Assembly (NCBI GenBank): GCA_048938855.1
Contig: JBHLLT010000023.1
Coordinates: forward strand, 1 to 43,620
DNA: 43,620 nt
Direction: 5' to 3'
Source of the DNA: Promethearchaeota archaeon
GTDB taxonomy: Archaea > Asgardarchaeota > Lokiarchaeia > Sigyniarchaeales > SOKP01
This document shows positions 40,720-40,936 of the stretch, in pieces. The stretch's first letter is position 1; every line of letters begins with the position of its first letter. The notes beneath the pieces are model-generated. The model did no database searches and had not been told where the DNA came from. It was given only the letters and a program-made list of their open reading frames with translations. The position numbers and the translations under genes were made by a program.

Positions 40720-40903
40720 TATAACCACATAAAAAAGCGTGACCGGGTATTTTCCTTGTATGCCATGACCGTAAGCAAACTTACAGTTTGTAGTTTCCCA
40801 TAGATCGCAACTACAGTACTATCTACAACGCGAGACAAGTTTAACTTCCGGGTTCGGATGGTTCCAGCGCAGTAGCGAATTGCTACAAATTTATGTGGTT
40901 ATA
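40720..40903. repeat. 14-bp perfect inverted repeat (40720-40733 / 40890-40903) enclosing the permuted 5S gene
   Basis: tataaccacataaa ... tttatgtggttata. Confidence 0.92.
40741..40861 (-). rRNA. rrf: 5S rRNA gene, circularly permuted (3' part 40861-40779, linker TT, 5' part 40776-40741)
   Basis: Minus strand reads CCATCCGAACCCGGAAGTTAAACTTGTCTCGCGTTGTAGATAGTACTGTAGTTGCGATCTATGGGAAACTACAAACTGTAAGT-TT-GCTTACGGTCATGGCATACAAGGAAAATACCCGGTC. All five 5S helices and loops can be assigned after re-ordering; length 121 nt. Confidence 0.9.
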
Positions 40904-40920
40904 AACTATATTTTGAACCA

Positions 40921-40936
40921 TTTTATAAGGTCGGTT
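40921..40936 (-). promoter_or_regulatory. Putative BRE/TATA promoter of the 5S precursor
   Basis: Minus-strand AACCGACC-TTATAAAA lies about 20-25 nt upstream of the 5' arm of the outer stem. Confidence 0.5.

What the first reader, a model, noticed from the sequence alone, without database searches (positions are those of the whole stretch)
40771..40786. 5S helix I is capped by a UUUG tetraloop, so the mature RNA may have no free ends
Seen: CUGUAAG-UUUG-CUUACGG leaves essentially no spacer between the natural 3' and 5' ends. Permuted tRNAs carry an intervening sequence removed by RNase P and tRNase Z to re-linearise the circle; here there is almost nothing to remove. Inference: the ribosome may carry a covalently closed 5S rRNA, or one nicked in this loop.
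Basis: partly seen in the sequence, partly recalled or inferred. Interest (0 to 1): 0.75.

Follow-up and report, generated by a model that had tools for sequence, protein, structure and literature searches.

The report
Ring-shaped 5S rRNA, capped helix I
The hairpin is the cap that closes the normal ends of this Asgard archaeon's only 5S ribosomal RNA; the gene is written back to front, and public environmental RNA shows its new ends cut and re-joined, so the RNA is most likely a closed 121-base ring.

Summary
Observation confirmed. On the minus strand, 40769-40786 is a 7-bp helix I closed by a 4-nt loop. It lies inside a circularly permuted 5S rRNA gene (mature part 40741-40861).

The cap is conserved. 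In 41 distinct genus sequences, helix I pairs in 41/41 at all 7 positions, two of them with compensatory changes. The loop is always 4 nt, mostly UUCG.

The gene ends form a bulge-helix-bulge (BHB) splice signal. The genome encodes two EndA paralogs and RtcB.

The genus holds two gene layouts, opened 16 nt apart. Cutting and joining either one gives the sequence that is collinear in the other.

RNA contigs from four metatranscriptome studies cover only 40741-40861. Each contains the joint 40741|40861, exactly at the predicted cuts, and each also runs through the tetraloop.

No canonical 5S was found in closed genomes of the family.

Presence in ribosomes and absence of a nick are not shown, because contigs cannot map ends.

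The scan has found this permuted 5S before, on other Asgard DNA (160 notes, at least 111 genomes). I found no paper describing it.

This is a new variant of a known mechanism, the Thermoproteus permuted SRP RNA.

The parts
40769..40786 (-). Helix I of the 5S rRNA closed by a tetraloop: 3' strand 40780-40786, loop UUUG 40776-40779, 5' strand 40769-40775. This is the finding itself.
   Evidence: sequence; 41/41 paired, 2 compensatory positions, loop always 4 nt; helix 6, 100% paired. RNA contigs run through it.
40741..40861 (-). Mature 121-nt 5S rRNA as encoded, in the order loop C (part), helix III 3' strand, helix II 3' strand, helices V/IV, capped helix I, loop A, helix II 5' strand, loop B, helix III 5' strand. 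After joining 40741 to 40861 it is a closed ring.
   Evidence: RNA cover is limited to this span, with joint 40861->40741 in 4 runs; the joined and rotated sequence aligns end to end with canonical 5S of a sister family; covariation and model R1.
40861..40863 (-). BHB bulge 1 (AAC). Predicted and observed cut between 40862 and 40861.
   Evidence: motif in all 46 genus genes. (RNA joint begins at 40861).
40864..40867 (-). Leader strand of the 4-bp central BHB helix (CUGG). It pairs with 40743-40746 and is discarded with the leader.
   Evidence: The leader copy varies (CUGG, CCGG, UCGG) while the retained copy is invariant.
40868..40870 (-). Leader strand of the outer BHB helix (GCG). It pairs with 40737-40739.
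   Evidence: Covarying variants GUG/UGC and AUG/CAU. The neighbouring pair appears as A-U or G-C in some species.
40872..40886 (-). Leader hairpin (5 bp, 5-nt loop) between the flank stem and the BHB. Role unknown.
   Evidence: in the MFE and centroid folds. (conserved; G-C to A-U compensatory change in several species).
40890..40900 (-). Leader strand of an 11-bp flank stem. It pairs with 40723-40733 and extends the BHB outer helix.
   Evidence: MFE and centroid; in L062 both strands are replaced by a different complementary pair.
40740..40742 (-). BHB bulge 2 (UCA). Predicted and observed cut between 40741 and 40740.
   Evidence: (RNA joint ends at 40741).
40737..40739 (-). Trailer strand of the outer BHB helix (CGC).
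40723..40733 (-). Trailer strand of the flank stem.
40743..40748 (-). Helix III 5' strand. It pairs with 40844-40851 in the mature RNA. In the precursor, 40743-40746 alternatively pair with the leader (40864-40867) to form the BHB.
   Evidence: 6 pairs, 100% paired, nearly invariant. (the MFE fold shows the mature pairing).
40921..40930 (-). A/T-rich TATA-like box about 25 nt upstream of the flank stem. Inferred archaeal promoter of a stand-alone transcription unit.
   Evidence: sequence. (similar box at the same distance in relatives). Inference only.

Best explanation
The hairpin caps helix I of the organism's only 5S rRNA gene, which is circularly permuted. Transcription starts in the middle of the molecule, on the 5' side of loop C. 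It runs through the native 3' end, the 4-nt cap and the native 5' end, and stops just after the helix III 5' strand.

Leader and trailer pair into a relaxed bulge-helix-bulge. The parts are an outer helix, a 3-nt bulge, a 4-bp helix, a 3-nt bulge and then a loop. The tRNA-splicing endonuclease cuts after the second base of each bulge (40862|40861 and 40741|40740). RtcB joins the 2',3'-cyclic phosphate and the 5'-OH. Topologically the 5S is the 'intron', so it leaves as a covalently closed 121-nt ring in which loop C is restored.

The tetraloop stays intact as a structural cap, so the ribosomal 5S has no free ends.

Shown: the permuted order, the motif, the enzymes' genes, the ligated joint in RNA, and RNA continuity through the cap.

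Inferred: which enzymes act, that the ring is the steady-state and ribosomal form, and that no nick follows.
For: 1. Gene. RF00001 reaches only 31.5 bits on the DNA. After in-silico joining and rotation, the sequence aligns end to end with canonical 5S of sister family f2. Helices I, II, IV and V covary.

2. Sole copy.
- There is one hit in the window's own genome.
- Two closed and three nearly closed genomes of the family have no hit at or above 38 bits. Four of them have only the sub-threshold hit at the permuted locus; the fifth, G104, has no RF00001 hit at all, though model R1 finds its permuted gene.
- Model R1 finds a full-length permuted gene in 118 of 131 other family genomes. It is nearly always single, and two genomes have a second, weaker or cut-off hit.

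3. BHB. All 46 classified genus genes have an outer helix, a 4-bp helix and two 3-nt bulges.

4. Reciprocal control. Layout A (25 genes) is opened on the 5' side of loop C. Layout B (21, plus one variant) is opened 16 nt further on, in the AA bulge of helix III. The predicted A joint equals the collinear B sequence and vice versa, so all products align without a gap at either site. A third opening site, in loop B, occurs in family f3.

5. Discarded copies vary where the retained copies are invariant.

6. RNA.
- Four runs from four studies give cover only on 40741-40861.
- Every run has the joint 40861->40741 with 'both' = 0, and some contigs are longer than one turn (143-151 nt).
- There is no cover on the leader or trailer.
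- The joint sequence is absent from the genome assembly.
- In run X15, a contig made only of loop-spanning words (40763-40800) has depth 10. The joint-spanning contig has depth 10.8.

7. Enzymes.
- There are two EndA paralogs. One is most similar to crenarchaeal catalytic subunits and keeps the His. The other has Ser at the position of the His.
- There is one RtcB.

8. Precedents.
- The Thermoproteus permuted SRP RNA is circularised through EndA (PMC4731332).
- A 4-nt connector across the native 5S ends is tolerated in working E. coli ribosomes (PMC7283268).
Against: - Contigs give neither ends nor proportions. A cycle in word space could also come from a mix of circular intermediates and linear products (caveats).
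- The depth comparison rests on one run and on per-contig means.
- The inner helix h' of a strict BHB is missing, so cleavage needs a broad-specificity endonuclease. That is only inferred from the two paralogs.
- The minimum-energy fold of the precursor shows the mature helix III rather than the BHB central helix, so the BHB is an alternative conformer.
- No ribosome-derived RNA was examined.
- An earlier check of the same claim on other DNA priced 'closed ring is the ribosome's 5S' at 35/100.
Confidence: 0.68

Rival explanations
1. The ring is only an intermediate. After BHB cutting and ligation, the circle is opened again in or next to the helix I tetraloop, giving a conventional linear 5S, as happens with permuted tRNA genes and circular pre-16S.
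For: - The established archaeal pathway re-linearises circular pre-16S, and often pre-23S (PMC12918454).
- Permuted tRNA genes use a circular intermediate (cited in PMC4267664).
- Contigs cannot exclude it.
Against: - There is no spacer or tRNA-like element to be recognised.
- The loop is fixed at 4 nt and is mostly UUCG, UACG or GNRA across 10 families. This indicates selection on a stable cap in the functional RNA.
- Loop-spanning words are present in all four runs at a mean depth of only 5-13. In X15 they are as deep as joint-spanning words, 10 against 10.8.
Confidence: 0.17
2. The transcript is cut at the BHB but mostly not ligated. The ribosome would carry a linear, permuted 5S with ends in loop C, and the capped helix I would simply replace the native ends, as in brown-algal mitochondrial 5S.
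For: - Linear permuted 5S exists in brown-algal mitochondria (PMC4267664).
- Loop C can be opened in engineered E. coli 5S (PMC7283268).
Against: - The ligated joint is in RNA contigs of all four runs.
- Layouts A, B and C would then give 5S molecules broken at three different, functionally conserved places in close relatives. Ligation makes them identical.
- RtcB is present.
- BHB-cut products are ligated in all described archaeal cases (established knowledge).
Confidence: 0.08
3. A bacterial-style stand-alone 5S whose flank stem is an RNase III-type processing stem, or a decaying pseudogene. This was my first reading, before the organism was known.
For: - The 11-bp flank stem.
- The sub-threshold Rfam score.
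Against: - The organism is an Asgard (Promethearchaeota) archaeon.
- The helix II and III strands lie on opposite ends of the gene.
- The gene is conserved in 118 of 131 other family genomes, nearly always as a single copy, and it covaries.
- The RNA is cut precisely at the bulges, not in the stem.
Confidence: 0.02

Closest known systems
Permuted, circularised SRP RNA gene of Thermoproteus tenax (Plagens et al. 2015, PMC4731332)
   Same: An essential structured non-coding RNA is encoded in permuted order. [quoted passage not shown]
   Different: - The RNA is different: 5S rRNA, a ribosome component.
- It is far more widespread, covering a whole Lokiarchaeial family and at least 9 other Asgard families in the samples searched.
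- The opening site drifts between three positions in relatives.
- Here only the sequence, the enzyme genes and RNA contigs are available, with no biochemistry.
Circular pre-16S and pre-23S, and circular 23S in mature archaeal ribosomes (PMC12918454; Pyrococcus permuted 23S, PMC7758197)
   Same: The rRNA is excised from a processing stem at a BHB and circularised. A circular rRNA may stay in the ribosome.
   Different: - Those genes are collinear, and circularisation joins the native ends.
- Here the gene is permuted, the native ends are joined in the DNA by a tetraloop, and ligation repairs loop C or helix III.
- That paper states the pathway applies to 16S and 23S 'but not 5S rRNAs'.
Circularly permuted tRNA genes (Cyanidioschyzon merolae; Soma et al. 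2007, as cited in PMC4267664)
   Same: Permuted gene, BHB-type processing of the termini, and a circular RNA stage.
   Different: Permuted tRNAs have an intervening sequence between the native ends that RNase P and tRNase Z remove, so the product is linear. Here the native ends are separated by a structured 4-nt loop only.
Permuted mitochondrial 5S rRNA of brown algae (Valach et al. 2014, PMC4267664)
   Same: The open helix I of 5S is replaced by a closed hairpin.
   Different: That RNA is permuted in the final linear product, with ends at the junction of domains alpha and gamma, and no ligation. Here the ends lie in domain beta and are joined.
Engineered cp5S in E. coli (Huang et al. 2020, PMC7283268)
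   Same: The native 5S ends are linked by a 4-nt connector, with new ends opened in loop C or D. The ribosomes work.
   Different: That construct is artificial, fused into 23S and not circular. It serves only as evidence that a capped helix I is sterically tolerated.

Membership tests
5S rRNA (Rfam RF00001) | Score at or above the gathering threshold (38 bits) on the genomic sequence | tested here: not met
   31.5 bits at 40778-40890. The shortfall comes from helices I and II, whose strands are out of order in the DNA.
5S rRNA (Rfam RF00001) | Three-domain fold with helices I-V and conserved loop C and loop E sequences | tested here: met
   After joining 40741 to 40861, the sequence aligns end to end with canonical 5S. 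All five helices are supported, and I, II, IV and V have compensatory changes.
5S rRNA (Rfam RF00001) | It is the genome's 5S, with no other copy | tested here: met
   One hit in the window's own genome. No canonical hit in the closed genomes G006 and G037 or the near-closed G093, G104 and G136. Caveat: the window's own 23S 3' end is unassembled.
BHB-processed, circularised permuted ncRNA gene (Thermoproteus SRP RNA type) | Permuted gene order with the native ends joined in the DNA | tested here: met
BHB-processed, circularised permuted ncRNA gene (Thermoproteus SRP RNA type) | Bulge-helix-bulge at the transcript termini: two 3-nt bulges on opposite strands, 4 bp apart, flanked by helices | tested here: inconclusive
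   The outer helix, both 3-nt bulges and the 4-bp helix are present in 46/46 genes. The inner helix h' is absent (relaxed BHL form). The MFE fold prefers the mature helix III.
BHB-processed, circularised permuted ncRNA gene (Thermoproteus SRP RNA type) | Splicing endonuclease and RtcB ligase encoded | tested here: met
   Two EndA paralogs and one RtcB.
BHB-processed, circularised permuted ncRNA gene (Thermoproteus SRP RNA type) | Ligated junction present in RNA at the predicted cut sites | tested here: met
   Joint 40861->40741 in contigs of four metatranscriptome studies. The joint is absent from the genome.
BHB-processed, circularised permuted ncRNA gene (Thermoproteus SRP RNA type) | Physical circularity (RNase R resistance, gel mobility) and cleavage by the recombinant endonuclease | not testable with these tools
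   Needs wet-lab work or raw reads. The only read-laying run returned contigs.
Permuted tRNA-type genes (circular intermediate, re-linearised) | Intervening sequence between the native 3' and 5' ends that is removed to give free ends | tested here: not met
   Only a 4-nt loop, of fixed length, in 41/41 genus sequences and mostly UUCG across the phylum.
Brown-algal type permuted linear 5S | New termini at the three-way junction, kept in the final linear RNA | tested here: not met
   The termini lie in loop C or helix III and are joined in RNA.

The most novel reading that the evidence does not exclude
In this Lokiarchaeial family, and in most other Asgard families sampled, the ribosome's 5S rRNA is a covalently closed ring made by the tRNA-splicing machinery from a back-to-front gene. 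These include lineages with closed 1.4-Mb and 3.1-3.3-Mb genomes. Because only the ring is under selection, the place where the gene is opened drifts, with three sites seen. If so, ribosome biogenesis in these relatives of eukaryotes depends on EndA and RtcB, and the 'missing' 5S genes of Asgard genomes are explained.
Probability: 0.6. Interest if true: 0.9.

Novelty: new variant of a known kind. Interest (0 to 1): 0.85.

Why it matters
5S rRNA is treated as a universal, linear, autonomous RNA. A recent survey of archaeal rRNA circularisation explicitly excludes 5S (PMC12918454).

A natural closed-ring 5S would matter in several ways:
- It would be a second circular rRNA in ribosomes.
- It would make the tRNA-splicing enzymes essential for ribosome assembly.
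- It would give an exonuclease-proof 5S.
- It would explain why standard annotation (Rfam gathering score) reports no 5S in many Asgard genomes. Only 49 of 151 sampled genomes have a canonical hit. This also affects MAG quality labels that require a 5S gene (MIMAG standard, from my own knowledge).

The coexistence of two gene layouts in one genus that converge on one product is a clean natural experiment on how permuted RNA genes evolve.

Tried and rejected
- I first assumed a low-GC bacterium with an RNase III processing stem. I dropped this after (Asgard archaeon; cuts in the bulges).
- The Rfam gathering scan and ARAGORN on the window found nothing.
- The Rfam normal-topology helix I (40882-40890 with 40778-40787) is a weak alternative. 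It is rejected because helix II then has no partner, and because the RNA does not cover 40862-40890.
- The R1 hits in G083 (39 and 31 bits) turned out to be ordinary canonical 5S genes.
- The Pedobacter hit of the DNA pattern is within the ~4 chance hits I estimate from the pattern's information content and the collection's size.
- I looked by eye for BHB signals around the ~30-nt insertions in loop C and loop D. Where the bulges were clear they lie on the same side of the helix, so they are not introns by that test, and they remain unexplained.
- Family f4 (G025, G027) could not be resolved. No recognisable 5S was found in the closed genome G027.
- RNA ends, strand and proportions could not be obtained. 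The single read-laying run returned Logan contigs only, and the uncovered leader and trailer are used only together with the contig joint.
- Literature searches for a circular or permuted 5S in archaea found nothing. The only related report is unvalidated low-level 5S circles of a collinear gene in Sulfolobus and Halobacterium (PMC3326292).

Full report
WHAT IS AT THE COORDINATES

Rfam finds nothing at gathering level in the whole window. With relaxed thresholds, RF00001 (5S rRNA) matches 40778-40890 on the minus strand at 31.5 bits, below the cut-off of 38. Loop C/helix III and the helix IV/V region align well. Helix II has no partner, and helix I is only weakly paired in the normal topology.

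The missing helix II 5' strand, loop B and a helix III 5' strand lie downstream of the hairpin, at 40743-40763. So the gene is circularly permuted. The hairpin joins what are normally the 3' and 5' ends of 5S.

THE ORGANISM AND THE GENE'S STATUS

Earlier notes on this window call the genome a Loki-type Asgard archaeon. A DNA pattern for the capped helix I plus loop A found 65 stretches. Of these, 64 are archaeal MAGs, and nearly all that carry a taxon name are Asgard (mostly Promethearchaeota or Promethearchaeia). One is a Pedobacter hit, within the ~4 chance hits I estimate for this pattern.

The locus is the only 5S-like hit in the window's own genome. The own rRNA operon fragment (contig C18) breaks off inside 23S, so by itself the genome does not exclude a second 5S.

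Relatives settle this:
- Two closed and three nearly closed genomes of the family have no RF00001 hit at or above 38 bits.
- Four of them have only the sub-threshold hit at the permuted locus.
- The fifth, G104, has no RF00001 hit at all, although model R1 finds its permuted gene.

The flanking genes are unrelated to rRNA: a glyoxalase-fold protein, two unassigned ORFs and a C25 peptidase. A TATA-like box sits about 25 nt upstream, so this looks like a stand-alone transcription unit (inference).

IS THE CAP REAL?

I collected the locus from about 50 species of the genus and joined each in silico at the predicted cut sites.

- In 41 distinct sequences, all seven helix I pairs are standard in 41/41.
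- There are double-sided compensatory changes at two positions: C-G to U-A in 4 sequences, and U-A to C-G in 11.
- The loop is always 4 nt: UUCG 18, UUAG 11, UUUG 9, and UCCG, CUAG and UACG once each.

On an alignment of the permuted core as it lies in the DNA (A1, 30 sequences), the structure I specified is 95.6% paired, against 34-50% when partners are slid by 1-3 columns. Twelve pairs have changes on both sides, and none of 500 shuffles reaches the observed values for four of the five measures. The exception is 'further standard pair types' (22 observed, shuffled mean 22.3, reached by 334 of 500). The helix I hairpin is 100% paired.

A covariance model of this core (R1) finds a full-length gene in 118 of 131 other genomes of the family, across 12 of the 13 genera sampled (g1 and g10-g20), at 68-131 bits. 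It is nearly always single; two genomes have a second, weaker or cut-off hit. The sister family f2 has ordinary 5S genes.

WHERE THE NEW ENDS ARE, AND WHY THAT MATTERS FOR 'NO FREE ENDS'

Leader and trailer form an 11-bp flank stem (40890-40900 with 40723-40733), which appears in both the MFE and the centroid fold. Inside it lies a motif of the bulge-helix-bulge kind:
- outer helix, 40868-40870 with 40737-40739;
- a 3-nt bulge, 40740-40742;
- a 4-bp helix, 40864-40867 with 40743-40746;
- a 3-nt bulge, 40861-40863.

All 46 classified genus genes have these parts, and the outer helix covaries (GCG/CGC, GUG/UGC, AUG/CAU). One species has replaced both flank-stem strands with a different complementary pair (L062).

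The inner helix of a strict BHB is missing, so this is the relaxed form. The MFE fold of the precursor shows the mature helix III instead of the 4-bp BHB helix. The two must therefore be alternative conformers.

By the established rule for the archaeal splicing endonuclease, which cuts after the second base of each bulge, the cuts fall at 40862|40861 and 40741|40740. The 5S lies between the cuts, topologically an 'intron'. The established fate of such pieces is ligation into a circle by RtcB.

The genome encodes one RtcB and two EndA paralogs:
- One paralog is most similar to the catalytic subunits of crenarchaeal heteromeric enzymes and keeps the catalytic His.
- The other has Ser where the His aligns in the M. 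jannaschii enzyme.

This fits a heteromeric, broad-specificity enzyme (inference).

A NATURAL CONTROL INSIDE THE GENUS

The genus holds two gene layouts.
- In layout A (25 genes, including the window), loop C sits at the 5' end of the gene.
- In layout B (21 genes plus one variant), loop C sits at the 3' end, and the gene is opened 16 nt further on, in the AA bulge of helix III.

Each has its own BHB. Cutting and joining layout A yields exactly the sequence that is collinear in layout B, and vice versa. All products align without a gap at either site.

The discarded leader copies vary (for example AAG, ACG or AUG in the bulge; CUGG, CCGG or UCGG in the helix). The retained copies are invariant.

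A third opening site, in loop B, occurs in family f3.

This pattern is expected if selection sees only the joined product. It is hard to reconcile with an unligated RNA, which would be broken at different conserved places in close relatives.

RNA EVIDENCE

Six RNA runs hold part of the stretch. I laid four of them, from four different studies (sediment, estuary and aquatic metatranscriptomes, held as Logan contigs).

- In all four, cover is confined to 40741-40861, and the leader and trailer have none.
- Each run has a contig with the joint 40861->40741 ('goes back 121', no ambiguous bases), which is exactly the predicted junction.
- Contigs of 143-151 nt go round more than once. One (X20, record 15) is 151 nt, which equals 121 plus 30, with a single mismatch to the window. 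That is the form of a cyclic unitig if the word length is 31 (my recollection of how Logan was built).
- These contigs also pass through the tetraloop (40776-40779).
- All loose ends are the wrap-around sequence of this RNA or of relatives.
- The joint sequence does not occur in the genome assembly.

In run X15, a 38-nt contig made only of loop-spanning words (40763-40800) has depth 10. The joint-spanning contig has depth 10.8. So RNA with an intact cap is not a rare species there.

Limits:
- Contigs carry no ends, strand or local depth.
- A mixture of circles and re-opened molecules cannot be excluded.
- None of this RNA is known to come from ribosomes.

Permuted tRNAs have a removable spacer. 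Here there is essentially none, so the RNA may be closed.

The argument is sound. It is now backed by the motif, the enzyme genes, the reciprocal layouts and the RNA joint.

The fixed 4-nt loop, dominated by UUCG and other stable tetraloops, argues that the cap is part of the working molecule rather than a processing site. A 4-nt connector across the native 5S ends is tolerated in functional engineered E. coli ribosomes (PMC7283268).

My estimates:
- about 0.9 that the RNA is cut and ligated as described;
- about 0.68 for the whole statement, which includes that the closed ring, un-nicked, is the steady-state ribosomal 5S.

BEYOND THE FAMILY

Model R1 also hit a genus of 1.3-1.4-Mb genomes in another family (f5).

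In a sample of 151 genomes of the phylum, only 49 have a canonical RF00001 hit. These are f9 (25 of 26, the remaining one being a collinear gene with an insertion), f14 (17/19), and f2, f12, f18, f27 and f28.

Families f5, f7, f8, f10, f11, f19, f22 and f23 have sub-threshold hits, often doubled. Family f7 includes closed 3.1- and 3.3-Mb genomes, one of them with two copies. On inspection, the hits in these eight families are permuted genes in layout B, with a capped helix I of 6-12 bp.

The scan has noted the same thing on other Asgard DNA many times (160 notes in at least 111 genomes). Several follow-ups also reported re-joined forms in environmental RNA. Those notes agree with what I found independently here.

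KNOWN OR NEW

The mechanism has a close precedent. The permuted SRP RNA gene of Thermoproteus tenax is processed by the splicing endonuclease into a functional circle (PMC4731332).

Circular 23S in mature archaeal ribosomes was reported in 2026, with the explicit statement that circularisation concerns 16S and 23S 'but not 5S rRNAs' (PMC12918454). Low-level, unvalidated circles of collinear 5S were seen in Sulfolobus and Halobacterium (PMC3326292). Brown-algal mitochondrial 5S is permuted but linear (PMC4267664).

Full-text searches for a circular or permuted 5S in archaea found nothing else.

I therefore class it as a new variant of a known kind. The machinery and logic are the same. The substrate is new and universal, the phylogenetic spread is wide, and the opening site drifts.

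Noticed in passing
L062 (G032), L064, L069, L073-L075, L078, L081, L085; L058-L061, L063, L065, L026, L082-L084; L077; L192 (G104): About 30-nt insertions in the family's 5S genes at four different sites: loop C, loop D, the helix II 3' strand and the helix I 3' strand. They give predicted rings of about 150 or 180 nt. They form hairpins but do not look like BHB introns. Whether they stay in the RNA is unknown.
   Followed up: partly
window 40872-40886 (minus) and homologous leaders: A conserved 5-bp/5-nt hairpin in the discarded leader, between the flank stem and the BHB. It has a compensatory change in some species and is absent in L062. No role assigned.
   Followed up: no
L062 (G032:C169): Its mature 5S sequence is nearly identical to the window's, but the gene has layout B, a loop C insertion and entirely different, mutually complementary leader and trailer. 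This suggests a recent re-opening or replacement of the gene.
   Followed up: no
L186 (G129:C109) about 960-1090: A second, partial 5S-like copy with a capped helix I and a layout-A-like 3' end, about 700 nt from the intact layout-B gene. It may be a relic of a layout switch.
   Followed up: no
G027 (closed, family f4) and L235 (G025): No recognisable 5S at all in a closed genome of family f4, with either RF00001 or R1. G025 shows only a 5'-half-like piece. The 5S of this family may be split or rearranged in another way.
   Followed up: partly
L012/L033/L038 (G026:C1:1399892-1400758): A sister-family genome has three canonical 5S genes in tandem with a period of about 375 nt. This is the kind of array from which a permuted gene could arise by truncating a dimer.
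   Followed up: no
L152:1210-1818:+ (own genome C34): The second EndA paralog has Ser where the catalytic His aligns in the M. jannaschii enzyme, so it looks like a structural subunit of a heteromeric endonuclease.
   Followed up: partly
own genome contig C18 (3181 nt): 16S and 23S are linked by a spacer of about 190 nt without a tRNA, and the contig ends inside 23S. The 5S is unlinked, on contig C13.
   Followed up: no
window 40731-40736 (minus): A run of six U in the trailer lies between the BHB outer helix and the 3' strand of the flank stem. In archaea such a run can terminate transcription, which would leave the flank stem unformed. It is not conserved in all relatives.
   Followed up: no
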